Positions 362 through 59,688 of a stretch of DNA of 64,000 nt are shown in pieces. Under the pieces are notes generated by a model, which saw only the letters and a list, made by a program, of their open reading frames with translations, had not been told where the DNA came from and ran no database searches. The stretch is from the human T2T-CHM13v2.0 reference genome, Homo sapiens. The stretch is from NCBI RefSeq assembly GCF_009914755.1, contig NC_060930.1. One strand, written 5' to 3'. Within the stretch, counting starts at the first letter, position 1; each line of letters opens with the position of its first letter. The translations under genes and the position numbers were made by a program.

Positions 362-908
<547 letters not shown>

Positions 909-1003
909 TTATTTTCTATCTTGTAATATAATTTGATCCTTTACACTTACATAGTCAACTGATTCTAAAAGGAAATATTTTCATTGTATGAACATTTAAC
1001 TAT

Positions 1004-1041
1004 ACTCATTATAGAGTCAAGCACTCATTATAGAGTCAAGC
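1004..1041. repeat. Perfect 19-bp tandem duplication (actcattatagagtcaagc x2)
   Basis: Directly visible. Confidence 0.95.
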
Positions 1042-1287
1042 TGTGTGATATGATTATGTTTCCTTAACTAGATTGTTATTTCTGACTCTCACTAATTGTT
1101 CAAAATGCTGTATTTTGGACCATGTCTTTGTTAAGAAGTTTTTTGTTTATCCTGGATTTTCTGATTGCCTTTTCCAATTGAGAAAAGAAACATTTATCTT
1201 TAGTATTAGATCATTATAATTTTTAAAATTCCTGATTATTCTATATTTGCTTGAAATTTATTTTTTGTTTCAGAATCCATTAAAGTG

Positions 1288-1560
1288 CTTTTTTTTTTTT
1301 TTTTCTTTTTGAGACATGGTCTCTCTCTGTCACCCAGGCTGGAGTGTAGTGGCATGATCTCAGCTCACTGCAATCTCAGCCTCCAGAGTAGCTGGGATTA
1401 CAGGAGTGCACCACCACGCTCAGCTAATTTTTGTACTTTTAGTAGAGTCAAGGTTTCACCATGTTGGCCGGGCTGGTCTCAAACTCCTGGCCTAAAGTGA
1501 TCTGTCCGCCTTGTCCTCCCAAAGTGCTGAGATTACAGGAGTGAGCTACCATGCCTGCCC
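1288..1560 (-). mobile_element. Alu with an internal deletion in the right arm
   Basis: Alu consensus; gcaatctcagcctcc skips about 30 bp between two similar ctc(c/a)gcctcc motifs. Confidence 0.95.
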
Positions 1561-2205
1561 AAGGTGCTGTTCTTATTGGTTAATTCCTTTTATATTGATA
1601 CCCAAAATTTTTGTATAACTTTTTGCTTTTCTCTGAGTGTTGCGTATCTTTTTTTTTTTTTTTTTTTTTGCACTTGCGATTTTATAATGTATTCAGGCAC
1701 TTCCCCTTCTCAAATTCTATCTAGTCAATGGTATTTTCCCTTTCCCCAGTGGCTTCCCGCCCAGAGCCCTCCTTCTTCCTGCCTCCATCTGTACCTCTAT
1801 GGTCAGTTCCATAGCTGTCATGCTGAGACCTCCCTTCCCTGCTCCTGGTTCTGGTTGACTGTCCCCTGGATCCTGTCTTTCTTTCTTTCTTTTTTCTTGG
1901 TTTGTCCCCTTCCTTACTTTGCTGGAGTAAATCCTTAACTGAAATGTGTGTGGAAGGCAAGTGTTCTGAGTCCTTGCTTGTGTGAAAAATTTTTTTTTTG
2001 TCTTCTTTCACATTTCATTAATTATTCAGTTAAGTATTGAATTTTAGACTGTATACTAAGAATTCTAAAGACATGAATTCTGTATCTTTCAATATCTAGT
2101 TTGTTTGCAGGGGATTTTCCTCTGTTCTTAACTTTCAAAGTAATGTTTATAGCTGTGAGCCCTTTTCCTTTATCCTGCTTATTAGCTGGTAAATCTTTTC
2201 AATTT

Positions 2206-2254
2206 GAAAACACAGTTTCTTTTTTTTTTTTTTTTTTTGAAAACACAGTTTCTT
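2206..2254 (-). mobile_element. Poly(A)-only retro-insertion with 16-bp TSD
   Basis: gaaaacacagtttctt - T run - gaaaacacagtttctt|aa. Confidence 0.8.
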
Positions 2255-2877
2255 AATAAGCCCTGGAAACCTCCTTTTATTATTTCTTTGCCTCCATTTT
2301 CTCTTTTTAAAAGCCCTATTAAATATTGAATTTTCCGAGTTGATCTTATGTGTCTCGCCATTTCGCTCCCATTTTCCATTTCTTTGTCATTTTGTTCTCC
2401 TTTATGACAGACTTCATCTATTGTTACCTTTTAGCCCTTCTATTTTATTGTGTATCTTAGTGATCCTGTTTTTAATCTCCAGGAGTTCTTTTTAATTTTC
2501 ATATTCTCCTTTTCCATAGCATCCTGTTATAGATGCAATCTCTAATTTCTCTAAAGATATGAACAAGAATTTTACTTTTCAAAAAGGTTCTCCACAGTTC
2601 TTTTCTTTTGTATTTCAGGCTTCATTGAAATGTTTGATGTCTCTTGGTTGTCTGGTTATATTTAGAATGAGTGAATTGAATGGTCAGGAGCTCTGTGTAG
2701 ACAGTTGGGTTCTATTGACTGAGAGACTTCTCTTTGAGCTGAGTGGACAGGGAATTTATGCCTTACACAGTAGCCCTCTGAGTGTCACAGTTAGGAGGGA
2801 TTTTCTCTAATGCGCCAATACCCATGCTAATTGCCCTAGTTTCCTCCAGATATTTTATCGATTTTCTTTTGAAAAGA

Positions 2878-2909
2878 CTATTTATTTATTTATTTATTTA
2901 TTTATTTTT
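2878..2909. repeat. (TTTA)n microsatellite
   Basis: Directly visible. Confidence 0.9.
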
Positions 2910-3389
2910 GGCCTAGGAATAAATGCCTTGTTTCAGCTTCTGTTGGAAGAAGAGAAGGAGGCAGATAGGAAGCTGTGGTTGGCTGTTCCTTGCATAGACC
3001 TTCAACAAATTCCCGTTTTCAGATCTGGTTCTCACTCTTTATCTCTGTTGTGTATGCTTCTTCCTACTCCAGACTCTGGAGTAGGAAGCCAAGTAAGTTA
3101 ATTCCCTTCATTGCAGCAGCACCTTCCCCTCCTCGTTTGTATATAAAGCGGCTGCTTTCTTAGCTCTGCTTTATCCATTGGTCAATGTTTCTCCATCTGT
3201 GTTCTGTATTCCAACAATTTATTAAACTCTTTAATCCACTGATGGCATGATGTCATTATTCTGTATTTTTGGAGGTTTATACTTTTAAAAATTACTACTA
3301 TAGTTATAATGAGGTATCAGAAAGAAAATAGAAACTTACATTTCTTCAGACCTACCATTCAGAAATGGAATTCTGTTTTATATAATTAA

Positions 3390-3925
<536 letters not shown>

Positions 3926-4324
3926 TAATCTTTAGCATTTATTTTATTTAATATTGTGAGCAGATAGTACAGAGTTCTCATAAGTCCTTTCTCCTTCATA
4001 CGTGGTTTTCTCTATTATTAATCTTTAGAGTTTTCATGCTAAGATAAATATAACATCTGGTCAAGGCAGAGAATATGATTTCTCATAGATTACCAGGAAC
4101 ACTTCAGTAATAGTAGTCACAGGAAAGAATAAACCTAAACAAATCTAGAGAAAGAGTTCAATACTAATAATAGAAAAGACTTAATAGGTCCCTCAGCTCA
4201 GAGATACTTTAATTATAGAGGGTCCTGGAATCTCTATCACTGGAAAAATTTAAAGGATAAATATCAATATGGCTTTGGAAAGAAAAAATACATTACTTCT
4301 ACAATTAACTTGTTTTATCTTGGA

Positions 4325-4520
4325 CAAAATGTTTGTGAAGCTCCTACTGTGTACTAAAAACTTTGGTGGGTGTATGGAGTACAAAGACAAATGAAACATG
4401 AGCTATGCTTTGATGTCTAAATAGAGAGATAGACATGCAACCAAATAATTTAATACAGTGTTCTAAGCATAATAGTCTATTCTAAGTGAAGTCCTGGAAC
4501 AGAAGAGGGAGTGAGCAGTT
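4325..4520 (-). mobile_element. L2 fragment
   Basis: gctcctactgtgtac...gagatagacatgcaaccaaataatttaatacagtg is typical of an antisense L2 3' region. Confidence 0.6.
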
Positions 4521-4682
4521 TTCCTTGAGTGGGCCCCAAAAAGATTCCAAATAATTGTGGCTTGAATTTTCTATCTTGACTACAAAGATTCATTCTGTGG
4601 TATTTATACCTGGAAAAACAGCATTTTACTTTTCTAAAACAATGGCCTTTTTGCATCTGGAATTTCACAGATGGTTCTCAGG

Positions 4683-5432
4683 TGTATAAGTCAGAATTCA
4701 ACCAGAAAATAAAAGCCACACAGTCATTAGAATAAGGGAAGTTTAATATGAAGAATAACTATCCATGTGGGATTAGAATGATAAGAGATTGGCTAGTAAA
4801 AAGTAAAGAGAACTCTAAAGAATTTAGGAACTGCAGATACAAGGAGAAGCCATGATGTATAGGACTGAGACAGAGCACCCAAGGAAAAGGATTTCCTCTC
4901 TCTCAGGGCTAAGATACATACCTCATTGGAATGGGCATAGCTGTGGCTCACCAGATAGTGGAGGAGTCCCTGAAATACCTTGATGAACTTGTAGGAAATC
5001 TTTCCTCTGAGGTGCTGAGAAAGCCATTGACAGGGACATGCTGTGCTTTGCAATTCATTGCAATGTTACCTGAGGGTTTGTTGGGGAAGGTATTGGCCAT
5101 TGAGTGCTTCTGGCTGCTGGAGCCAGAGGCCAGGTGCTAGAGGAGCTCTTCACTATAGGAACTGTTTATTTTAGGTGTCGGTGGCAAAGCCATGATGGCA
5201 GAAGCCTAGTGCTGAAGAAATTGGGTACTGTAGCAGCCTAAGAAGAGGAGTGTATAAGAACCACCAAGAGAACAATACCATTTCTCCTCCAATATCTCTC
5301 CTCCCTCCACCAACAAAGCTTAACATGTGCCAGCTGGTGAAAAGAAATTGTAAAAGACCCATATGCATTTTACAGAGCAGGATATGAAAGATAGATTTTG
5401 AGCCTCGAGGCAAGTAAATTGATAACTGACAC
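4683..5432 (-). mobile_element. ERVL solo LTR (LTR33/LTR41-like)
   Basis: TG...CA termini: tgtataagtcagaattcaaccagaaa ... gaggcaagtaaattgataactgacaca. Confidence 0.7.
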
Positions 5433-6519
5433 AACAGGATAAATTTTTGTGACTTTCTCTAAAATGAATCATCTCTTTGAAAGTTCACATCGTATTTCAG
5501 TGTTCATCTTACTGATGTCTTACTGATGGTTTACTGGTTTTCTTACTTGCAATATCTGTTTAGGAAACTTTTGACACTTTCATTTTGACATTTCTCTTGA
5601 GGTCTAAAATTTAGAAGCATGTCTGGCTTCAAGGTGTTTTTTCTCTGCCTTGATAGAACAATAGCATTTTGTGGTTTTCTATCTAGAGAATTCTAAATTT
5701 GTGGTTCCTTGGTTAACTAATCCAACCTTTCACTGAATCTTTCTATGGTAACTCTGCTCATCATTTTCTTTCTCTGGTCCCTCCTTTCTCACTATATGCT
5801 ATTGCCTTAGTCTTCTTGATAGTCCAAGAAGCCCAGGGTTTTTTGTAGCTGAGAGTTGGAATTGGTTTTATAACCCCTTAGGATTGAAGATCATCCTCTC
5901 AAAGTATTGCACAGAATGTAACACTTTCCAAATGTGGTGTCTAGCATGATACTGATATGAGACAACCTTACCCCCTGTAATCAAGATATTGTATATTTCC
6001 TGGCAAGTAAATTTCAAGCCTTTTGGCTCTACAGATTCTCTGTTTCTTGGTTTAGAGGAAATTTAGCAGGTGATGTGTTATAGTATGGAGTCACTTATAT
6101 GTTAAAAGCTACATTGTGACATGGGAGATTTCAGTGATGAAAAACCGGAAGTGGGAAATCTGCAGTTGGCAACTTGATTAAGGAGAACTTTCTAGAAATG
6201 TAGGGGCAAGACACTGATGTGTTAGAAGAGGGAAGATGGTAGCCCTTAAAAAGAAACAGTGTGACATACATGCTGAAGGAACCATAGTAACTAAGAAGCA
6301 ACTCAACGATGATTAATGACTAATATTGAAAAAACATTCTGGAAGCAGTGATCCAAAAAAGGCTGGGAGAACTATAGAACTGTGCCCAAACCTCCTTTTT
6401 GGAATCCTTTTCAATGCTTGTGGAGATTTTGGAGAACGGAGATTGTATAAGACTTTTTTGCTGTGATACATAATCTGAAGAATTCATGCTTGTCACATAA
6501 TCTTATTTTTCCCATAGCA

Positions 6520-6677
6520 GTGGTAATAATATATTTGAACGTCTACTATGGGCTAAGTACCATTTAAAACATTATTTACCACCACTTATAAGATGCAAGT
6601 TATAATCATTTTTTATGGGAAAACTGAGTCTTACAAAGTTTAGACAACTTGATGTGGGCCAAGTTTTGGACCTGGGT
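6520..6677 (-). mobile_element. MIR SINE
   Basis: ttgaacgtctactatg...ggaaaactgagtc...aagtttagacaacttg. Confidence 0.65.
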
Positions 6678-6795
6678 ATAAGTTCTGTGAAGGCAGATAT
6701 TATAGCTGTTTTGTTCAGTTGGTACCCCTGGGGGCTTGAAGAGGGTCTATCACATAATAGGTGCTCCGTAAACATTTGTTGACTGGATTAATGAT
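6678..6795 (+). mobile_element. L2 3' end
   Basis: taagttctgtgaaggcag...taggtgctccgtaaacatttgttgac. Confidence 0.75.
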
Positions 6796-7080
6796 TCCCA
6801 TATCTGAATGTTTTTTACTCCCTCTTTTTCAGTATTTCATATTGAGATTATTTAAGAGTTTGGGCCATGGCTCTCCTAGTTCTCTATAATGGATATTCCA
6901 ATGGGTTCTGAGAGTAGGAAGATATTAGATGAAGGTAGTAATGTTGAACTGGTGAGCTGGAGGTCCTTGCAGGTGGGAATAGGCTAAGGCTGGCATAATT
7001 GTATAGAACTCACAGCAGACCTAGAAAGGTAAGTCATCATTTAGTAAATGGCTTTGTCCTTCCATTTGATATATTTCACA

Positions 7081-7245
7081 CAGGAATCTTTAACCTAGGA
7101 AGTATCGTACCCAAGGGGGTTCATGGGAGGTTCCCAGGAAGCCCACTGATTACTGAAATTGCATGTAAAGTTGTATGGTGATGTATTTTTCTGGGAGGAG
7201 GGTACACCATTTCTAGGGGGCTGTGACACTAAAAAGATTAACAGT
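7081..7245. mobile_element. hAT-Charlie MITE (Charlie4z-like)
   Basis: caggaatctttaacctagg...tttctgggaggagggtac...tgtgacactaaaaagattaa. Confidence 0.6.
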
Positions 7246-7297
7246 ATTCAATGAGAACACTTATCATTTACCTTCTGCTCGACCATAAAGTGTATTG

Positions 7298-7359
7298 TTT
7301 TGTAATATTGTAGTATTTTTTGTAATTTTGTAATATTGTAGTATTTTTGTGTAATATTG
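7298..7359. repeat. Short tandem repeat of ttttgtaatattgtagtattttt
   Basis: Two copies plus partial copies. Confidence 0.85.
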
Positions 7360-8632
7360 GACTTGACACATTCTTTTTGTTGATTTTTATTAAAAGGAGA
7401 AATTTCATTTTGTCCTACACATAGTGAATTTTAAATTATTTTTAGGTATAGTTGACATTTCCGAGCTTAGGCCTGGGGCACTTCTCTTACTGAAAAACCT
7501 ATGTCACTCAGAAGCCCAGAGAAAATATTAATTAATTTCCAATTTACTTGGAGGCAGGATGAAAATAATAGGTTGGTCTCTCCTTCTGACCACCCAAGAT
7601 GCCAGCCACCCTGAATGCTTTTTCTTGTCCCTTCATGTTTTGGATCCAAACTAGCTAAATCAGGATCTTTTAGAGGTTTTCTCTAAATAAGCTAGCAAGC
7701 ATTTACCTGTTTGAAACAAAACCCACAGACCTGCTTGCCTAATTCTGGCAACCAAAACCCTGTGGCTGTGAGCAAGTTTGCCTCCGCTTTGATCCATGAT
7801 GTGTATGACAATATATTTTTTGGCTGTTCTAAAGCAGACTGCCAATTAGATCCAAATGTGTCAGACAGACTCAGAGAGGGTACTAGTGGCCAAGTTTCCA
7901 TTAGTGGTTACTACTGATTGATGCCTGCAGCTTTCTGTTCATGTACAAATAGAAACCTATTCTCATCTTTGATCTTGGGGTTGGGAGTTGAGGTAATGAG
8001 GAGAAAGTCCCGGAACACAATTAAATCTCTTTGTATCTCTCAACTTGTAACTTTTGTTTTCCATTTAACACAGGAAAGACTCTGAATATTAGGAAGTTGT
8101 GATTCTCTTGTTCAGACTAGGGCATGCTTTTCATTTGCTCAGATACAGAAGGATATAGGGAGAAGGAAATAAACCATGTTTATGGAAACACAGCTCTGTG
8201 CCTGTAACGGTGTTAGATGCTTTCCCACGTGACCTCATCCAATTCCCTAACAACTCTAGAAAACGAGGATTCATATTCCACATACTCTTAAGGAAACTGC
8301 GTTTCAGAGGAGAGGGAGAAAAATACATTCTTCTGTGTTGCGCACATTGTAAGTGGCAAAACAAGTTGAAACAGGCAACTGTTGGCCTCAATGGCCTGTG
8401 GTATTTCCACTCCACGGTATAACAATGTAAGTGATTATGGTGTTAATCCTCCTGGTACTGCAAAAGAGCTTTATGAAAACCTTGAATGCACAATGGGAAT
8501 GGGAACTATTCTGAACAGTTTATTTAGTCTAGAAGCTTACCTGTGAGTCATCATAGACCAATACAAAAAAAATCAGAAACCTAATTTCTAGATTTTAGCC
8601 TTTGCATTAATACTTAGAAATAAGCTGGTCTG

Positions 8633-22766: not shown

Positions 22767-25625
22767 TCAGTTATATAGACCAGAGGGAAGAAATTGGGGG
22801 ACAGAAAGGGGGAAAAGCTATCTGGGCCTTAAGTTAAAATCTATGAGAGATGACTTTTTTAGTGGGAGGAGCTGGTGACTTAAAAACTCTCTCTGCCTAC
22901 AGGGGCTCCCATTTGACTGTTAGAGACTTTTTCCTTTGGATGAAACATGGTTCTTTCACCACAATTCTCATTTAAAATATAGATATTTCTTGAAGGGGTA
23001 ACATGTTAAGCTATCTGTTCCTTTTCCTGTTCATTTTCCTACTGACAGGGGCAGCCTGGGTAAAAGTGATGACACAGAATTATCTGGAAAGGGAAAATTG
23101 AAATCAGGATGTGGAACAGAGGACTTTAGAGACTCTTCTTCATCACTTTGCTTAGGTTTTAGTTTCACTGGGATTTGCTGAGAGGACAGGGAATGAGTGT
23201 CCCAGGGTGTCTGCCTGAGACTGGAATTGAGGAAGGGGTGAGATGTTAACCAGAGAGCTGGGAGGGCAAATCCCTGGTATCCAGAAGCTGAATAGCACTT
23301 CTGTTCCCTCACTGTATGCTATTGAGTGTGTTGGCCCAGCATGGTGGAAACACCGCATTCCCAGGCTGAGCACCTCATGCTTCTGCAGAGAAAATGCTTT
23401 TCCGCCTCAGCTTGTGTCACGCCAGATGCACTCTGATCTCAGAGGGAAATGTGTGCTACTGGTAATTAATAAATAACCTATCACAGTTTACAAAAACCTT
23501 TCAAATCCAGCACGGCATTTGGTTCTCATGTGTTCCTCTCAGGGTGCTAGATGAAATTCTGACTCTAATTCCTCTAGTAGATGAGGAAATGAGAACACGG
23601 AGTTTCTTAAGATTACTCACTTGGAAAGTCATGGAGTTACCCGGAAGCAATATGGCTCGCCCTTGCACCAAATCTCACTGTTGACAATGACGATGGTGGG
23701 TGCTTCTCTTACTAGAATATCAGTTTATTTCTCCAGCTCTTCTCTGAGGAAAATAATACCCCTGAGGACAAATTTGAGGCACTGTTATGTGAAATGCTGA
23801 CTCCCTGAGAAGGAAGGGAACGTTGGAAGCCGAGAATGCTTGTGCAGTTCCTCTCATGCTGCAGTTTTCTGGTGCCATCTGCTGCTCTGTTCAAGTAATG
23901 GCAGACGAATGGCTCTTGGTTGAAGGAAGGCAATGGTTGTAGTGAAGTGCGTCTTTAGGGTAACAGAATTGAGTTTTTATCAAACTGGGGTGTGTGTAGG
24001 TCATTGTACTCATTTCAGTGGTTTATGAGGACTTTTTAAAAGTTGTCTTTTCCCAAAACACTAGGATTGCAAGGAAAGATCTGATGTGCAACTTATGGTA
24101 TGCTATGCTATTAATTATATCAATGAATAGTTGCATGTTAAGAGAGATAGAGAGAAAGAACAATAATTCATTCCAAAGGAGGGAGCCCTCCAGTAGACTC
24201 TGAGCTATTTGAGGGTAAGAACCAACTTAGTTATCTTCGTACCACTAACCTACCAAGTGCCTGCCACCAGTTGTGGGCACCAGTGAAATATATGCTCATT
24301 CTGTCACTGATGGTACAATTTTGGGTACAGTGGCATATGCATGAGACTACGTACATCCGCCCTGGCCAGCAGTCTTCTCAGAACATGAGTGAGTTAGGGA
24401 ATTCTTCTCTTATTTCCACAGAGGCAGGTAGCCTGAGCATGGGGGATATACACCTTTAAGAGACAAATACCAATCCAGTTCTTTACAAAGGACAGGGCTG
24501 GATTTTGTTTTTAGAGGCCAGTTAAGGAATGTGAAAAGATGACAGCATTTAATCCATAAAATGAAGAGAATGTGACATAATCCATTTGTAGGCCCCATTC
24601 TTAATATCCACAATTAGTATTAGAGACAGGGACTCTAGCCGAGGGATGGGGCAGGAATAGGTCCTAAGTTTAGGAAAGTTTCCAATGGGGCAGAGATTCC
24701 CAAGATATATCTCTTGCCTCTAATGAGAAGATACAGAAGGGAGACTTGGAAACAGTTTGTTCTTTGGACATCTTGCTCCTGCTAACCACCTGTGTAAGGC
24801 ATCGCCAGGCGTCCCTAGCCCTAGATTTCACCCAGCTACTTCTTGTGGGCTGTGGGGAGGGTATGGAGCAGCATCTGCTAATGTGGAATCTAACATTCAC
24901 GTAGAATGGCTTGAGGCCTTTCTGTTAGGAAGTGGGAGTATCTCCGAGGAGGCAGAGTCTACAAGCCTAAAATGAGAGTGAAGATATTTCCCCTTCATTT
25001 TATTTTTACACTTAATTCAGCAAACAGCTATGTGCATGAACAGGTGTGTGAGTTAAAATATGCCTTTACATGTGACTATTTAAAGGAAACTTAATTCTTT
25101 TGAAAAGCAAAGAATCTTTTTGCAAAGTAAATAATCATGACACAATTCAATTGATAATCTATGAGTTAGCTAGGATGTATTCATTAAAAGGTCTTTGTTG
25201 TTACCCACATTTTATATGTTTAAGGGAATATAGAAGGACATTTAGTCTTAGACCAATAAATGGATTAGCTGGTAAGTATTGAGGCAAAAATACATGTTCT
25301 TATTTATAAAATTATAAGATTATCTATACAAAATTATATAATATTAACATTATAAATATACATTATAAATTGGTTTCCAGATCAACTCTCCAAAATCAAT
25401 TAAATCTATGATACAGATGAAATCATAACATTTGTAACTAAAACAAGTAAGAAGAATGCTGATAGAATGTTCAAAATTATAAAGGAGATAAAAATATTGA
25501 GTAGAAATATGTGTTTAGTTCTCGTTAAGATGTTTGAGTAAATGTTTGAGTATTAAAAACACAAGAAGAGATTTTTGTAAAGCTTGAAGAACTCCAAGAA
25601 TTTGAGATGTTGGTGCCTTGATTCT

Positions 25626-25876
25626 TGTGGCTAATTCAATCTAAAACCGTGTAGCTTTCCTGTCTGGGTAGATATATATATTAGCTTTTACTTATGAATT
25701 AGGCAATTTCTCTCTCAGAATTGAAACAGAGGAAGTAAGGAGAGATTTCCCTGGACTTACTAGGTAAGATCTAGAAGACAAAGATGGAGGAATAGAGTTG
25801 GACAAAAATATGTATGGGTGTGATCTTGGTCTGTGAGTGATGACTGGCCTGTAAGTGGAAAAATTAAGAAAATCAG
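25626..25876 (+). repeat. Donor arm of inverted duplication 1
   Basis: Reverse complement aligns to 28453-28705 plus 29015-29048, about 25 mismatches in about 250 bp by hand. Confidence 0.93.
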
Positions 25877-26481
25877 CTCATGAGAGTTTGCATACTTCCC
25901 TGATTCCTGAAAGAAGAGAATCTTTATCTGCTGGAGTTTCCATGTTGACTGACAGTCATATATGTTAAAAGGAGAACAACATTTTACATGTTTAATGACT
26001 TTTGGAAAGTCATTTGCAAAGTTTTTTTTTTTCTTCACACAGCAACATTATACAGTGGTTTGGGAAAGGAATTTCAATTCAGGAATTTTATTTAAAATCA
26101 AAATTCAATTGCCTTCCCTAAACTCCTTTAAAGTTGCTATTTTTTATTCTGATACCACCAGTGAAGGGCCTAACTCAGGCTTCTCAGGATGACATCCCAA
26201 TAAAATCCCGTGGCAACCAAGCTCTTCGCGACAAGTACTCAGCCGCCTTTCTATCTCTGTGTGTGTCGAACAGGCAGACAGCCGTGAGTCATCAAATACA
26301 CACTGGGGTCATTTGGGAGCTAATCTTTATAAAGATGAAAACTGCATCTGAATGTTTATTGTTGTCTTCACTTCAGTGCAAGATAAAGAAGCTCCGTCAA
26401 GTAACGCAGTGGGCCCTCAAAGTGTGGTCCTGGGACCAGCCATGTCAGCATCACTAGAAAACTTGTTAAAAAAGCAGTTCT

Positions 26482-27342
26482 CCAATGAGCACACATGGAC
26501 ACAGGGAGGGGAACTCACGCACTGGAGCCTGTCAGGGAGGCGGGTTGCGGAGGGAAAGGGAGAGCTCAAGATAAATAGCTAATGCATGCTGGGCTTAATA
26601 CCTTAGGCAATGGTGAAGCGGCTACGTTACCTGGGGTATATATCCTGGGGTTCGTTGTGGTGCGCCAGGAAAATTTAGGACACAGACACACATGAGGAGT
26701 TTAGGAGCAGAGGTTTAATAGGCAGAAGAGAAAAGGAAGATAAACAGCTCTCTCTATAGGGAGAGGGGTCTCCGAGCGGAAAGGACCCAGCCAGCGGTAA
26801 ATGTGCCAGGTTTTACAGTCAGATTTGAGGACGTGGTGTCTGATTTACATAGGACTCACAGATTGGCTCGATTAGGTACGATGTTTACATAGTGCATGGG
26901 GAAGGCTGGTTCCCCGCCCTAATCTTATTATGCAAATGGGCTTTCCAGTTCATTGGGGACATCCTGTCTGCTCCTCACTGTACACATGGCTGACAAAGAG
27001 AAGGGAAGATGGAGCTGCCATCTGAACATGTCTAGTCCCTAGTTCCTGCCAGGATTCACCCATGCAAGCTCCCAGCTTGCTTATTTATGTCTGCAGCTTG
27101 ACTTTACAGGCTACTCTGTTAGAACATGATTTTGGGCTGCTTTTCATTAAAAAAAAAAAAAAGGTCTTACCGTGGACTCCCATAACCCTTACTATCTGCC
27201 TAAGTGATTTCTTCTTAACTCCTATATCAATGGGCTGACAGGTGCAGCAAACCACCATGGCACACGTTTACCTATGTAACAAACCTGCACATCCTGCACA
27301 TGTATCCTGGAACTTAAAATTAAATTAAAAAATTAAAAAAAA
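26482..27342 (+). mobile_element. L1PA (older subfamily) 3' end, interrupted
   Basis: cacatggacacagggagggg...gcagcaaaccaccatggcacacgtttacctatgtaacaaacctgcac; TSD aaaaaagcagttct. Confidence 0.92.
26614..27229 (-). mobile_element. ERV1 solo LTR, LTR9 family
   Basis: 616 bp, TG...CA; minus strand starts tgatataggagttaagaagaaatcacttaggcagatag; 4-bp TSD atgg. Confidence 0.85.
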
Positions 27343-27706
27343 AAAGCAGTTCTTGGGCCCCATTCCAGACCTCTTGAATCAGAAACTTGGGAAGGAGGGT
27401 TCAGTAATCTGTGTTTTAATACATCCTCCTGGGGATTGTGATGCAAGCTCAGTATTGAGAACCACCGAGTAATGTGTGAATGAGGTCAGGAGAGCTAAAG
27501 AAGTAGGCTAAGGGGAGAAGTCAATTCAGGCTAATTCACTCCAAAACACCAACGTTATTATATATCTGAAAGAAAATTGAAAGGAATCTTAAGAATGATC
27601 TTCCTCAGGGTTAGGAAATAAACTAAACACAGCCTGAGGAACAGTGGGAAAGGATGGTGGATACTACCACCAATTTTCTCTTGGGGTTGAAGCTGGAAGT
27701 GTTAAT

Positions 27707-27890
27707 CAGGTCTACCATACCTTATCTAAAATTTCAACGTCACCAAAGCTCTGGCAACTGAGAATTTTACTGTAAGTTTGGTACCAAAACTCATTGGTGG
27801 CAAAATCTAACCAGAGTTCATGTGAGGCTTTACATTCATCATATTTATCCCACTTCGAGTGAATATTCATATTTTGCTTTAATTATCAAC
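27707..27890. mobile_element. MER46C (TcMar-Tigger) fragment
   Basis: ccaaaactcattggtggcaaaatct...tttatcccactt...gtgaatattcata. Confidence 0.75.
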
Positions 27891-28452
27891 TTAGTTGTAG
27901 GATAGCTCTGCTGGGGAGGCAGTGGGTCTGAGAGCCACTACTAAGGAGGAAGTTTAGCCCTTCTCTGTCCAATGCTCCCCAGATTGCAGTTTCCTTGGGC
28001 ACAAAGCCATAGCTTGAACCACTTTGAGGCCCAGTAGCTTAGACGGAGCCCTGTGTGCTGAATGAATGGGAAAGTTCCTATCATGAAAAGGTGTCATCAA
28101 GGAGGTCCAAGTGACCTCCAGTTTTCAGAGTTGAGGAAGTTACCTCTGCCGTCATCACACCAGGCCACTGAACTCTCAGAGCAAAGACCAACTGGAAGTG
28201 AATGTAGAGATTACCCTTCCCCTCCTTAGAAAAAAAAAAAGATTAACTAAACTCTATCCTTTATTTCAGTTGCATAGTTTTTCTGTAATATCCTTTCTCC
28301 ACTTAGTCACCATGTCTCCTTAGACTCCTCTGGGCTGTGATAATTTCTCAGACTTTCCTTGGTCTTGATGACCCTGACAGATTTTTTTCCTTTTAGTTGG
28401 CATGTAATAATTGCACATATTTATGGGGGTACAGAGTGATATTTCAATACCA

Positions 28453-29048
28453 CTAATTTCTTAATTTTTCCACTTACAGACCAGTAATCTACTCACAGAC
28501 CAAGATACCTGCATCTGTATTATCACACTCAGCCATAATTTTGTCCAACTCTATTCTTCCATTTTTATCTTCTAGATCTTACCTAGTCAATCCAGGAAAA
28601 TCTCTCCTTACACCCTCTGTCTGTTTCAATTCTGAGGGAGAAATTGCCTAATTGGTAAGTAAAAGCTAGTATATATATTTATCTACTCAGACAGGAAAGC
28701 TACATATTTTTTATTATTTTATTTTATTATTTTTTTGAGACAGTCTCATTCTGTGGCCCAGGCTGGAGTGCACTGGTGACATCTCGGCCTACTGCCACCT
28801 CCGTCTCCCAGGTTGAAGCAATTCTCCTGCCTCAGCCTCCCAAGTAGCTGAAATTACAGGTGCCCGTCACCACACTCCGCTAATTTTTGTATTTTTAGTA
28901 AAGACAGGATTTCATCATGTTGGCAAGGCTGGTCTCGAACTGACCTCAAGTGATCCACCCGCCTCGGCTTCCCAAAGTGCTGGGATTACAGGTGTGAGCC
29001 ACCGTGCCCGTCCAGAAAGCTACATGTTTTTAGACTGAAATACCCACA
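28453..29048 (-). repeat. Inserted arm of inverted duplication 1 (contains an Alu)
   Basis: Inverted copy of 25626-25876. Confidence 0.93.
28706..29013 (-). mobile_element. AluS
   Basis: Full Alu; TSD gaaagctacat at 28695 and 29015. Confidence 0.97.
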
Positions 29049-29719
29049 TACATTGTGTAGCAATCAAATCAGGTTAATTAGCATATTCATCACCTCAAAC
29101 ATTGATCATTTCTTTATGTTGGGAACTTTCAAAATCCTCTCTTCTAGCTTTTCAATATATGCAATAAATTATTGTTAACTATAGTCACCCTACAGAGCTA
29201 CATAGAACATTATAACTTATTTTTCTTTTTTAGCTATAATTTTGTTTCTGTTAACCAACCTCTCCCTATCCTTCCCTCCCTCTATCCTCCCAGCCTCTAA
29301 TAACCATTATTCTGTTCTCTATTTCTATGAGCCCAATTTATGTTTTTAGCTTCTAGATGAGTGAGAACACGTGGTACTGATCTTTCTGTGCTTGGCTTAT
29401 TTCACTTAACATAATTGACCTTGACAGTTTTGAAGGGTAGTGGTCGGGTATTTTGTAGAATTCCCCTCTATTGAATATTGATGTTTTATCCTCTTGATTA
29501 GACTAGGATCATGGGTTTTTGGAAGGAAAACCACAGGTGGAATGCCACTTTTATCACACCATATTAGGGGTTATCCTTGACAGGGCTCTCCTTAGCTGAG
29601 GTGGTGAACTGGTTGCTATCTCATCATTCTCTGTATATCAGGACCCCTGCCAGCCTTTGATGCTCCAGGGTTATGCCTATTGCCACAGAATTCAGAGTTG
29701 AGTTTTGGCTGGCTCAGCT

Positions 29720-30160
29720 GTGCTGGCCTTGCCAGTGGAAAAAAAAATCCAACTCAAACCAACTCAAGAAAGGAATTTCTTGACTCATGTTTCTATAAAA
29801 CCCAGAATACTGTTTTTAGGCATGGCAAGATCCAGGAACTCAATCACAAGCGTTCAGAAACTCTCATGTATTGGCTGTGGTTTTTCTTGGGTTTCATTTT
29901 TAGGTTGGCCCTCTCCAAATTTTAGAAAAGATGATTCCTAGACATTCCGGAATCTTTGTGTGATCCCAGAGCTAGGCTTTTTAGAGAAGAAGAGCATGAT
30001 AATATGAAAGCCCAGCAGAAACCCCAGGAAAGCACCATGCTCAGCTCAGGTCCAATGCTTATTTCAGGATCAGCAGCAGGAAATGCGCCACTCTGATTGG
30101 TCAGGTGTGAGTCATGTGCCCACCCCCCTGCCCCCATCTAAAACCACGAGGACTGAAGAA
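29720..30160 (-). mobile_element. Old MaLR LTR (MLT1L/N-like)
   Basis: ccaactcaaacc...aggcatggcaagatccaggaactca...ctgattggtcaggtgtgagtcatgtgcccacccc. Confidence 0.65.
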
Positions 30161-35115: not shown

Positions 35116-35464
35116 AGGCAAATGTAAGCATGCTTTCTTTAAAAAATTGGGTGTTTCATTGAAAGATAGAAAAATTCTGCATCTTAAAAATTCCAGTTGG
35201 CCTTTTAGTTACTTTGTGGTCAATGATATTGTCTCACCTTTCCAATATCCATTGGAATAGTGATGGTATCTAGGAATACACAAATATAAATGATAGGAAT
35301 GCCCTGATCCAAGGGGCAGAGGTCTGTGAATGGCTCACAGCCACCTTTCATAGTTCAGGATCTGAAATTCTGTGTGTCAGGGGCATGTGGAAGTGGAAAG
35401 CACACATTTCCCTATCTGTGAAGTGTCTCTCTTTCCCTTGACTGGTCTGTGACTTCTCTTGGAC

Positions 35465-35537
35465 TCTCAAAGTTCAACCAATCAAAGATGAATTGATTCT
35501 CAAAGTTCAATCAATCAAAAATGAATTAATTCAAAGT
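35465..35537. repeat. 33-bp tandem duplication (2 copies plus partial)
   Basis: tctcaaagttcaaccaatcaaagatgaattgat / tctcaaagttcaatcaatcaaaaatgaattaat. Confidence 0.9.
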
Positions 35538-37232: not shown

Positions 37233-38814
37233 AGCTCATTCCTTTTTATTGCTGAGTAAGAATATGCTACAATTTTTTATCCATTTATCTATTGATGTAC
37301 ATTTGGCTTGTTTCTAGTTTTTGGCTACTACAAGTAAAGCTGCTATGAACAGTCATGTATATATTGTGTGGACATACACTTTCATTTCTCGTGGATAAAT
37401 AGCTAGGAGTAGAATGGTTAGGTCATATGGTGACTGCATATTTACATTTTAAGAAATTGTTTCTCAAAGAGGTTGAACAATTTTACATTTTCACTAGTAG
37501 TGTATGAAATTTCTGGTTGCTCCACATCCTTGAAAACACTTGATATAATCAGTCTTTTCAATTTTAGCCATTCTAGTGGTTATGTAGTGGTGTAGTTGAA
37601 CATTTTTTTCATGTGCTTATTTGCTATTTGTATATCTTTTTTGAAGTGTTAATTAAAATATTCTGCCCATTTTTAATAAAATTGTGGTGGTGGTGTTAGA
37701 GTTTTTAAAAAATGTATTCCAGATATCAGTCCTTTAACAGATACATTATTTGTAAAGATTTTCTCCCAGTCTAGGGTTTCTCATTTCCTTTTTAAAATAG
37801 TGTCTTTGGATAAAGTCTAATTTATGGTTTCTTTTTATTCCTGTATCCAAATCTTTGCCAAACTAAGGTCACTATGATTTTTTTTCCTATTGTGCTCTAG
37901 AAGTTTTATAATTTTAACTCTTGTATTTAGGCTTATGTTTTATTTTGAGTTAAATTTTGTATATACTAAGCGGTAAGAATCAAGGTTCATTTTTGTGCAT
38001 ATAGATACCAAGTTGTTCCAGAACCATTTATTGAAAAGATTATTCTTTCTCTTTTAAATTGTCCTGGCACCTTTGTCAACAATCCTAAATATGTGGGTCT
38101 ATGTTCTATTCTAATTCATTTATTGATCTATTTTTATGCGAATACCACACTGTCTTGGTTAATGAAACTTTGTAAAAGCTTTGAAGTTAGGCAGTACGAA
38201 CCCTCTGGCTCTTTTTTCAAAGTTGTTTTTCCAAAGAATTTTCTACAGAGTCAGTCGTGTTATCTGCAAATAAAGCCAGTTTTATTTCTTCTTTTCAAAT
38301 CTGGATGCTTTTCAATTTTATTTATTTATTTCCTATTGCATAGAATAAAATCTCCAGCACTGGATACACATGTTCTCTGTCATAAAGAGAGGTTATAATT
38401 CTCAACTAGAGGAAAGATTTATGAAATGTTCCTTGGTGTATAGCATTTTAGATTTCAGTTATAGAATGAGATTGTGTGCTCAGGATTACCTGTCTGCAAT
38501 GCCTGATATTTTCCTCTTGGGCAGGCATCCAACTAGTATCTGAGAGGGAAATCCAGTAGCCAGAAGGAAGGAATCTGCTTTACATTAATTCTCAGGACAA
38601 TATTATTTGACTATATACAGATAGGATAATGATGACATGATAATTATAGGCAGGAAAGCTATGAAAAATAAAGCTTGAAGTAGGATCTGAACACCTCGTT
38701 TTTGAAGGGTATCTCCAAATATTTTATTGGAATACCAGATATATGAATTTCTCTTAAGTTCATAGGCTTCAAACGTTCTAACAAAGCACAGTCCTGAAAA
38801 AATAACTTGAGGGG

Positions 38815-39040
38815 CTTCACCGAAGAAGATATACAAATGGCAAATAAGCACATGAAAAAAATGTTCAACCACACCAAACATTAGGGTAATGCAAAGTAAA
38901 ATCACAATGAGACATTACTACATACCCACTAGAATGGCTAAAATTAAAAAGACTGACCACATCAAGTGTTTTTAAGGATGTGGAGCAACCAGAAATATCA
39001 TACACTACTGGTATGTAAAATTGTTCAACCTCTTTGAGAA
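38815..39040 (+). repeat. Inverted copy of L1 segment 37461-37646 (inverted duplication 2)
   Basis: About 90% or more identical to the upstream segment; the terminal 28 bp are identical. Confidence 0.85.
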
Positions 39041-39629
39041 GTAGTACACATATGCACAGAGTCATATTAAAATGTTACCTATGCAACTGTCCTATACATT
39101 AAAGTTATTAAAAGATCTGAACACTTAGGAAAAGAGGACTGAATAAGCAATTAAGTATTTTTTTTCTTTTCCTGCAGGTGAAATTTCTCAGGATTAAAAA
39201 ATTCTCTAAAAACATCCTAAAGGAAATTTTTTTTCAACAATTTTTCTTCTATGAATTCACTTTTCAGTTCACATTTCTGGAGAAAAAAACTCAGTGAAAA
39301 ATTGATGAAAAATGTTCATCTAAATGGCAAAATATTCTAAGCTAAGCAAAAAGCATTTTTTAGATGCCAGTGATTGAGTTACCAAGGGTGGGTATTGGTT
39401 GCGTAGGATGGAGTGAGCCCAGGAGGTCCCGGCTAGGAGAGTATCACTACTGACCCCATCATATGCTGGGATTGTTGGGTTTGCCTAAGAGCAGCGGGGT
39501 TTCAGTTTATAGTACCTATCTCTCCCCACCCCAATCCTTTTGTGATCAATAGAATATATTAAAATGACAGCTTGCAAACTATGAAAAAGCTTGCAAACCT
39601 CACAGAAGAGAAGTCTTTAAAAACTATTA

Positions 39630-59435: not shown

Positions 59436-59688
59436 CACTGCATGTTCTCACTTATAAGTAGGAGCTGAACAATGAGAACACATGGATACAGGGAGGGGAA
59501 CAACACACACTGGGGCCTATCCAGAGGGTAATGGCGGGAAGGGAGAGCATCAGGAAAAATAGCTAATGCATGCTGGGCTTAATACCTAGGTGATGGGTTG
59601 ATAGGTGCAGCAAACCACCATGGTACACATTTACCTATGTAACAAACCTTCACATCCCACCCTTGTATCCCGGAACTTAAAAAAAAAT
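59436..59688 (+). mobile_element. L1PA (older subfamily) 3' end
   Basis: gcatgttctcacttataagt...gcagcaaaccaccatgg...ggaacttaaaa; imperfect TSD aaa(g/t)gt(g/a)tttggtYtct. Confidence 0.93.

What the first reader, a model, noticed from the sequence alone, without database searches (positions are those of the whole stretch)
25626..29048. Locally templated inverted duplication of about 250 bp, dated by a four-layer nest
Seen: 28453-28705 plus 29015-29048 is the reverse complement of 25626-25876, with about 25 substitutions in about 250 bp by hand and a few indels, including a 17-bp segment found only in the downstream copy. The downstream copy splits an L1MA 3' end at caatac|...|atacattgtg. It has no TSD, poly(A) or TIR, and an AluS later inserted into it (TSD gaaagctacat). 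The L1MA itself sits in an older L1MC/MD with TSD tgaccYtgacag. The order of events is therefore L1MC, L1MA, inverted copy, AluS. Inference: a fossil template-switch or repair-templated insertion (FoSTeS/MMBIR or Pol-theta type) copied from about 2.6 kb away. If transcribed, the two arms could pair around the LTR9 nest and the candidate enhancer at 26150-26330.
Basis: partly seen in the sequence, partly recalled or inferred. Interest (0 to 1): 0.8.

Follow-up and report, generated by a model that had tools for sequence, protein, structure and literature searches.

The report
Fossil inverted copy-paste insertion inside L1
About 275 bases of unique human DNA were once copied backwards into an old L1 repeat 2.6 kb downstream, a well-preserved scar of DNA break repair that belongs to a known class of mutation and now supplies one exon of a predicted non-coding RNA.

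Summary
Arm A (25626-25876) and arm B (28453-28705 plus 29015-29047) are reverse complements: 223 matches, 25 substitutions, indels of 17, 4, 4 and 1 nt. A whole-genome search found only these two copies.

Arm A lies in otherwise unique DNA. Arm B sits inside the 3' end of a minus-strand L1. Intact L1 copies read caatac-ATGT-atacaatg at that point. The insertion therefore replaced 4 nt. It left no target-site duplication, no poly(A), no terminal inverted repeats, 2 orphan nt and at most 1 nt of microhomology.

An Alu with an 11-nt duplication later landed in arm B. The L1 itself, with a 12-nt duplication, splits an older repeat.

Best reading: a single break in the L1 was patched by synthesis templated in cis from 2.6 kb upstream. 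Whether this was fold-back, replicative template switching or a cDNA patch stays unresolved.

This is a new member of a known kind (templated or interspersed inverted duplication), so interest is modest.

Two extras. Exon 3 of predicted lncRNA LOC105374955 lies wholly in arm B. A second, similar inverted pair (37461-37641 and 38823-39040) lies about 8.4 kb downstream.

The parts
25626..25876 (+). Arm A: the presumed source, 251 nt of otherwise unique sequence
   Evidence: Searches show the homology. Searches show the flanks 24900-25640 and 25860-26405 have no or only weak genomic matches. One search found no terminal inverted repeats.
28451..28452 (.). Two orphan bases (CA) at the left junction, matching neither the L1 nor arm A
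28453..28705 (-). Arm B, main part: reverse-complement copy of about 25650-25876
   Evidence: Searches found only two copies genome-wide.
28706..29014 (-). Alu with A-rich tail (T-rich on the + strand), inserted into arm B after the copy was made
   Evidence: 8251 first-look candidates genome-wide. Flanked by an 11-nt duplication. Arm A is uninterrupted at the matching site, 25650-25659.
29015..29047 (-). Arm B, distal part: copy of 25626-25659. Its first 11 nt repeat the Alu target-site duplication at 28695-28705.
   Evidence: (I5).
28381..28450 (-). Left half of the younger L1 3' end, with the T-run of its tail at about 28381
   Evidence: Matches other L1 3' ends directly beside the right half in 19 of 29 loci.
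29048..29415 (-). Right half of the younger L1 3' end
   Evidence: 6959 first-look candidates, 40 scored at 77-80% identity. K2P to a majority consensus is 0.14, n=357.
28369..28380 (.). Left copy of the L1 target-site duplication TGACCCTGACAG. The right copy, TGACCTTGACAG, is at 29416-29427.
   Evidence: The flanks of the older repeat overlap by this length in 16 of 19 loci.
29428..29571 (.). Older dispersed repeat (L1-like) that the younger L1 split. Its left part is about 28241-28368.
   Evidence: 633 candidates at 74-79% identity. Contiguity shown. K2P 0.27, n=130.
28576..28654 (+). Exon 3 of predicted lncRNA LOC105374955, wholly inside arm B. The acceptor is ..ttctag| and the donor is |gtaagt.
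   Evidence: Exon coordinates come from the hub's annotation. Splice-site letters were read. Arm A's equivalent of the donor reads AT, not GT.

Best explanation
This is a fossil of one copy-and-paste repair event, not a mobile element.

Sequence of events:
1. The younger L1 had already integrated.
2. The chromosome then broke inside the L1's 3' end, between caatac and atacaatg.
3. The break was closed with about 275 nt of new DNA. That DNA was templated from unique sequence 2.6 kb upstream on the same chromosome and laid down in reverse orientation.
4. Four L1 bases were lost and two untemplated bases were added. No target-site duplication formed.
5. An Alu later inserted into the copy.

What is shown: the two-copy status, the insertion site, the junction anatomy and the order of events.

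What is inferred: the enzymology. My rough odds are:
- 55%: DNA-templated synthesis in cis. Either the resected 3' tail of the left break end (+ strand ending at 28450) folded back and primed on its own strand at 25876, or a replicative template switch occurred. The other end was then closed by end joining.
- 25%: a cDNA patch made from a nascent + strand transcript of the locus (class-2 templated sequence insertion type).
- The remainder: undetermined.

The confidence given here is for the general statement (a locally templated, post-L1, pre-Alu repair insertion), not for any one enzymology.

Present-day consequences:
- The copy puts the antisense of arm A on the transcribed strand. There it supplies a pyrimidine tract with an AG acceptor and a GTAAGT donor, used as exon 3 of a predicted lncRNA.
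- Arm A lies in the upstream intron. It could pair with that exon as an imperfect duplex of about 225 bp.
For: - Only two copies exist in the assembly. The same tool found 633-8251 candidates for the neighbouring repeats.
- Arm A's flanks are unique.
- Arm B is bracketed by two halves of one L1. In other copies these halves are contiguous with 4 nt between them: 19 of 29 loci and 10 of 10 shown.
- There is no duplication, poly(A) or terminal inverted repeat.
- The Alu duplication lies inside the arm homology, and arm A is uninterrupted there.
- The clocks agree on the L1. The arms differ by K2P 0.109, about 0.054 per lineage. The L1 is 0.14 from its consensus and the older repeat 0.27. The copy is therefore clearly younger than the L1.
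- The junction features match what the TSIP review describes for break-repair patches: no duplication, no poly(A), microdeletion, non-templated bases (PMC5110952, passages read).
- Inverted nearby templates are the described signature of template-switch insertions (PMC8421209 passages; PMC11724301 abstract).
Against: - No outgroup genome was available. Arm A could itself be an insertion from a lost third source, and which arm holds the ancestral state at each difference is unknown.
- The Alu looks at least as old as the arms' split. Its non-CpG K2P is 0.081 (17/223) against 0.054 per lineage for the arms. By my arithmetic the difference is about 1.2 standard errors. A mixed-subfamily consensus and the higher GC content (0.54 against 0.36) inflate the Alu figure. 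It could also mean early gene conversion between the arms.
- Neither junction shows 2 nt or more of microhomology, which fits classical MMBIR/FoSTeS or Pol-theta joining poorly.
- The documented fold-back insertions I read about are 5-34 bp and lie next to the break (PMC11724301 abstract). Great-ape short-range switches have a median of 12 nt and a maximum of 128 nt (PMC7954356). This event is larger and more distant.
- No repeat library (Dfam) could be searched.
Confidence: 0.85

Rival explanations
1. Both arms are independent insertions of a very low-copy mobile element or other third-party sequence whose source is lost.
For: Arm A's flanks are unique, so no empty site can be shown for it. 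The genome search is word-based and may miss very old families (tool text).
Against: Only 2 of 2 candidates were found genome-wide, even at E<=10. There is no target-site duplication, terminal inverted repeat or poly(A). Two copies landing 2.6 kb apart in 3.1 Gb would be an extreme coincidence without a local mechanism.
Confidence: 0.05
2. The copy was made during L1 integration. The L1 reverse transcriptase left the L1 RNA after about 70 nt, copied a nascent + strand transcript carrying arm A, and returned to the L1 RNA 4 nt further on.
For: The polarity fits. First-strand cDNA grows left to right from the T-run at 28381, and a + strand RNA through arm A would give exactly the observed orientation (inference). 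The locus is transcribed on the + strand according to the annotation.
Against: By my arithmetic, an insert as old as the L1 should show arm divergence near 2 x 0.14 = 0.28, about 58 of 248 mismatches. The observed figure is 25 of 248, K2P 0.109. Returning to within 4 nt of the departure point on the same RNA is an unlikely double switch.
Confidence: 0.05
3. An RNA-templated patch. After the L1 was in place, a break was filled with cDNA from an unspliced local transcript, the class-2 templated sequence insertion type. This is a sub-mechanism of the best explanation, kept apart because it predicts a different enzyme.
For: The junction features match the class-2 description: no duplication, no poly(A), microdeletion, non-templated bases (PMC5110952 passages). 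Both arms lie inside an annotated + strand lncRNA gene, so a nascent RNA would sit close to the break.
Against: The class-2 cases described there come from distant regions. An RNA patch predicts either orientation equally, while both local pairs in this window are inverted. The source is intronic, and nothing in the sequence, such as a splice junction or a tail, marks an RNA intermediate.
Confidence: 0.25
4. An inversion formed by staggered breaks, which leaves inverted duplications at its ends.
For: Inverted duplicates bracket a 2.6-kb segment.
Against: The two L1 halves on either side of arm B are collinear, keep the same orientation and keep their own duplication. The intervening segment was therefore not inverted relative to the L1.
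Confidence: 0.01

Closest known systems
Class 2 templated sequence insertions (TSI/TSIP; break-repair patches; PMC5110952, passages read)
   Same: The donor is retained. There is no target-site duplication and no poly(A). There is a microdeletion at the target and non-templated bases at a junction. It is a single short patch.
   Different: The described cases derive from distant regions and are argued to come from RNA. Here the template is 2.6 kb away in cis, is inverted, and shows no mark of an RNA intermediate.
Template-switch insertions of the MMBIR/FoSTeS type (MMB-TI, PMC8421209 passages) and short-range template switches in great apes (PMC7954356 passages)
   Same: An inverted copy of a nearby template is inserted at a single site, creating an inverted repeat.
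   Different: Those are defined or searched within about 100 bp or tens to hundreds of nt. The great-ape switches have a median length of 12 nt and a maximum of 128 nt, and MMB-TIs are flanked by microhomology. Here about 275 nt came from 2.6 kb away, with 0 and 0-1 nt of microhomology.
Interspersed (dispersed) inverted duplication with insertion-site deletion, a class of complex structural variant in present-day humans (bioRxiv 10.1101/200170, abstract and one passage), and 'bridges' of templated insertions in cancer genomes (PMC7025897 passages)
   Same: The topology is the same: a segment is copied, inverted, and inserted elsewhere on the same chromosome, leaving a small gap at the host site.
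   Different: This one is fixed and tens of millions of years old, dated by nested repeats. It is much smaller than most catalogued cases.
Fold-back templated inverted insertions at double-strand breaks in yeast (PMC11724301, abstract only)
   Same: An inverted copy is made from the broken molecule itself, with one end extended by a polymerase and the other end joined.
   Different: The yeast events are 5-34 bp, lie adjacent to the break, and use microhomology.

Membership tests
Break-repair templated insertion (class 2 TSI-like patch / single-template bridge) | The donor sequence is retained at its original place (copy, not cut) | tested here: met
   Both arms are present. Arm A is embedded in unique DNA.
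Break-repair templated insertion (class 2 TSI-like patch / single-template bridge) | No target-site duplication, no poly(A); a small deletion and/or non-templated bases at the junctions | tested here: met
   4 nt of L1 are missing, there are 2 orphan nt, and there is no duplication or A-tail.
Break-repair templated insertion (class 2 TSI-like patch / single-template bridge) | RNA intermediate | not testable with these tools
   The source is intronic or unspliced. Nothing in the sequence tells cDNA from DNA.
MMBIR/FoSTeS template-switch insertion | Microhomology (2 nt or more) at the switch junctions | tested here: not met
   Left junction 0 nt, right junction 0-1 nt, read. About 5% change per lineage could hide some of it.
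MMBIR/FoSTeS template-switch insertion | Template nearby and often inverted | tested here: met
   The template is 2.6 kb away and in reverse orientation.
Short-range template switch (four-point model) | Template within tens to hundreds of nt; copied stretch short (median 12, max 128 nt in great apes) | tested here: not met
   About 275 nt were copied from 2577 nt upstream (against the PMC7954356 passage).
Dispersed repeat / transposable element | Multiple dispersed genomic copies | tested here: not met
   2 candidates, both the arms themselves. A comparison with a repeat library was not possible.
Dispersed repeat / transposable element | Target-site duplication, terminal inverted repeats or a poly(A) tail | tested here: not met
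L1-endonuclease retro-insertion (class 1 TSIP / processed copy) | Duplication of at least 5 bp, a poly(A) tract, and a TTTT/A-type target | tested here: not met
   The target was caatac/ATGT/atac, with a deletion instead of a duplication and no tail.
L1 chimera made by reverse-transcriptase template switching at integration | Same age as the host L1 | tested here: not met
   Arms K2P 0.109 against an expected value of about 0.28 from the L1's 0.14. Gene conversion between the arms could bias this.

The most novel reading that the evidence does not exclude
The window holds two inverted local copies with the same polarity: 25626-25876 copied to 28453-29047, and 37461-37641 copied to 38823-39040. 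Their divergences are statistically indistinguishable (25/248 against 11/177). One reading is that both are products of a single multi-template-switch episode, a miniature germline chromoanasynthesis, in an anthropoid ancestor. Another is that they mark a recurrently breaking site. On either reading, the first copy was then exapted: it supplies exon 3 of a lncRNA, and that exon's inclusion would be governed by a roughly 225-bp intron-exon RNA duplex with arm A.
Probability: 0.12. Interest if true: 0.55.

Novelty: new member of a known kind. Interest (0 to 1): 0.3.

Why it matters
Templated and inverted insertions are mostly known from cancer genomes, patients and recent polymorphisms. Fixed ancient examples are rarely resolved to the base.

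Here the host L1 supplies an exact empty-site reference, and the later Alu supplies an upper bound on age. The junctions can therefore be read cleanly: a 4-nt loss, 2 orphan nt and almost no microhomology. The event can also be placed in time.

It further shows how such a copy can create splice signals by presenting the antisense of unique DNA to an existing transcription unit.

It is a tidy specimen of a known mutational class. It is not a new mechanism, and it has no demonstrated function.

Tried and rejected
- Rfam scan of 24500-30000 found no family at gathering score.
- A search of the window for a second copy of the 17-nt B-only stretch, with up to 3 mismatches, found only itself. At least one match occurred in 23 of 100 shuffles, so there is no local template for it.
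- A scan for terminal inverted repeats in arm A found only an internal 11-nt pair and an AT palindrome.
- The sigma-70 promoter and terminator scan is a bacterial tool. It is irrelevant to human DNA and should be disregarded.
Alu dating therefore used 56 copies already held in the window and fetched loci. These are of mixed subfamilies, which inflates the estimate.
- Literature search for LOC105374955 returned 0 papers.
- A relaxed self-comparison for further non-repeat local duplicates within 15 kb found only arm pair 1 and a 38-nt tandem at 35462-35532.
- Staggered-break inversion, L1 twin priming and terminal inverted repeats of one large transposon were considered and rejected. Arm B alone is bracketed by collinear halves of one L1.
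- No primate outgroup, repeat library or RNA data was available. Presence or absence across lineages, family names, exon usage and RNA editing are all untested.
Full report
**1. Observation**

Reading the two stretches and scanning 24500-30000 for repeats shows five collinear inverted segments. They join 25626-25876 to 28457-28711 and 29015-29048, and are 33-99 nt long at 85-94% complementarity.

blastn gives one gapped match of 206/248 (E 3e-56), plus the 34-nt piece beyond the Alu at 29/34.

A global alignment with the Alu and one copy of its duplication left out gives:
- 223 matches and 25 mismatches (14 transitions, 11 transversions);
- 29 gap columns, from indels of 4, 4, 17 and 1 nt plus ends;
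- K2P 0.109.

One refinement: the L1 ends at 28450, and 28451-28452 (CA) belong to neither partner.

**2. Not a dispersed repeat**

Searching the window's own 3.1-Gb assembly with arm A, and with arm B at E<=10, returned two first-look candidates each time: the query itself and the other arm (82% with gaps, E about 2e-64).

The tool is word-based, so I looked for positive controls. For neighbouring repeats of similar length and only 74-80% identity it returned 6959, 633 and 8251 candidates. It also found weak 74-83% matches of about 80 nt. A family at that level of divergence would have been seen. A repeat library such as Dfam was not available.

**3. Which copy is the source**

Arm A is embedded in sequence that is otherwise unique:
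- 24900-25640 gave only four weak matches, at 25286-25371.
- 25860-26470 gave matches only from 26406 on, where a dispersed repeat begins (where all 38 other scored matches lay at 26458-26700).

Arm B is bracketed by the two halves of one L1 3' end in minus orientation.
- In 19 of 29 other copies of that L1 fetched from the genome, the two halves lie side by side. Nine gave no left-half match and one had it about 350 nt away.
- All 10 copies printed have four bases between ...caatac and atacaatg..., ATGT in most.

So arm B is an insertion that replaced 4 nt. The simplest reading is that arm A was its template. Without an outgroup I cannot exclude that arm A was itself inserted.

**4. Junctions**

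- Left junction: L1 ...caatac, then CA, then the copy starting at the complement of 25876. The bases beyond 25876 show no match to the L1 end.
- Right junction: the copy ends at the complement of 25626, then L1 atacattgtg. One A could belong to either side.
- There is no target-site duplication, no A-tail and no terminal inverted repeat.
- The original insert was about 277 nt: 597 nt today, minus the 309-nt Alu, minus the 11-nt duplication.

**5. The nest**

- The Alu (28706-29014, tail to the left) is flanked by GAAAGCTACAT at 28695-28705 and 29015-29025. That 11-mer is part of the arm homology, and arm A is uninterrupted there.
- The L1 (28381-29415) is flanked by TGACCCTGACAG and TGACCTTGACAG.
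- In 16 of 19 other copies of the older repeat, the two flanks map to overlapping coordinates, as expected for a duplication. Three had no left-flank match.
- The order is therefore older repeat, L1, inverted copy, Alu.

**6. Clocks**

Against majority consensuses built in-script from copies already held:
- The older repeat is at K2P 0.27 (n=130).
- The L1 is at 0.14 (n=357).
- The arms differ by 0.109, about 0.054 per lineage.

The copy is thus clearly younger than the L1. This argues against a reverse-transcriptase template switch during L1 integration. By my arithmetic that model predicts about 58 mismatches in 248, where 25 are seen.

The Alu is the awkward point. Its non-CpG K2P is 0.081 (17/223) and its all-site value is 0.135. 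It is more diverged than 38 of the 56 other Alus used. Structurally it must be younger than the copy, yet it looks no younger.
- The difference is about 1.2 standard errors.
- The consensus mixes subfamilies, and the Alu is GC-rich (0.54 against 0.36).
- Early gene conversion between the arms would also fit.

With commonly used neutral rates (recalled, not from a call), 0.054 per lineage corresponds to very roughly 25-50 million years. That points to an anthropoid ancestor.

**7. Mechanism**

Shown:
- one break;
- one template in cis, 2.6 kb upstream;
- reverse orientation;
- a 4-nt loss and 2 orphan nt;
- almost no microhomology.

Inferred: the break was bridged by templated synthesis followed by end joining.

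An attractive geometry is fold-back. After resection, the + strand 3' tail ending at 28450 contains arm A 2.6 kb upstream. Priming on itself at 25876 yields exactly the observed orientation. A replicative strand switch would do the same.

A cDNA patch from a nascent + strand transcript is the main alternative. The TSIP review describes class-2 insertions with just these junction features (PMC5110952, passages). That model predicts either orientation.

The event is larger and more distant than the documented short-range classes:
- MMB-TI templates are searched within 100 bp (PMC8421209 passages).
- Great-ape template switches have a median of 12 nt and a maximum of 128 nt (PMC7954356 passage).
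- Yeast fold-back insertions are 5-34 bp (PMC11724301 abstract).

In topology it equals an interspersed inverted duplication with a small deletion at the insertion site. That class is recognised in present-day human variation (bioRxiv 10.1101/200170, abstract and one passage). It also equals a single-template 'bridge' in cancer genomes (PMC7025897 passages).

**8. Present-day consequences**

The hub's annotation places exon 3 of predicted lncRNA LOC105374955 at 28576-28654, wholly inside arm B. The letters read ...ccatttttatcttctag|ATC...AATTG|gtaagt.
- The pyrimidine tract and AG are the antisense of a purine-rich stretch of arm A, and arm A retains them.
- The donor GT corresponds to AT in arm A. 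One of the 25 substitutions therefore made or destroyed the donor. The direction is unknown.
- No paper mentions this gene.

As RNA the two arms cofold at -327 kcal/mol. This compares with -103 +/- 4 for 20 shuffles, and -49.7 and -34.3 for the arms alone. That is expected for any inverted repeat and is not evidence of function. No Rfam family matches.

**9. Second pair**

A self-comparison of the window showed another inverted pair, 37461-37641 and 39040-38823. It has 166 matches, 11 mismatches, K2P 0.066, and a 41-nt gap in the left copy.
- The left copy lies inside a continuous L1 body of about 1 kb, 37262-38229.
- The right copy is an isolated internal L1 fragment of about 230 nt. Its flanks, 38400-38812 and 39050-39460, match nothing else in the genome.
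- The best other genomic copies are only 74-82% identical: 40 scored of 895 and of 4812 candidates.
- This looks like a second locally templated inverted insertion with the same polarity, starting about 8.4 kb downstream of arm B.
- Its divergence is not significantly different from that of the first pair (25/248 against 11/177, z about 1.4 by my arithmetic).
- Whether the two share an origin needs outgroups.

**10. Verdict**

The observation and the general interpretation stand. It is a clean, datable specimen of a known mutational class, without demonstrated function. Interest is modest.

Noticed in passing
window 37461-37641 (+) and 38823-39040 (-): A second local inverted pair: 166 matches, 11 mismatches, K2P 0.066. 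The left copy lies inside an L1 body of about 1 kb (37262-38229). The right copy is an isolated internal L1 fragment of about 230 nt with unique flanks. Other genomic copies are only 74-82% identical. It is probably another locally templated inverted insertion with the same polarity as the main finding.
   Followed up: partly
window 28576-28654 with 28574-28575 and 28655-28660: Exon 3 of predicted lncRNA LOC105374955 is made entirely of the inverted copy. Its GT donor corresponds to AT in arm A, so a post-duplication substitution created or removed the splice site.
   Followed up: partly
window 26483-26607 and 27230-27319 against 59470-59682: Two pieces of one dispersed repeat (1850 first-look candidates) are adjacent at 59470-59682 but about 620 nt apart between the arms. 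Something therefore inserted into that repeat at about 26608-27229.
   Followed up: no
window 28507-28523: The 17-nt stretch present only in arm B is bounded by AT on both sides in the alignment. This fits a small microhomology deletion in arm A rather than an insertion in arm B. No second copy exists in the window.
   Followed up: partly
window 35462-35532: A short tandem duplication: two 38-nt units at 89% identity, offset by 33 nt.
   Followed up: no
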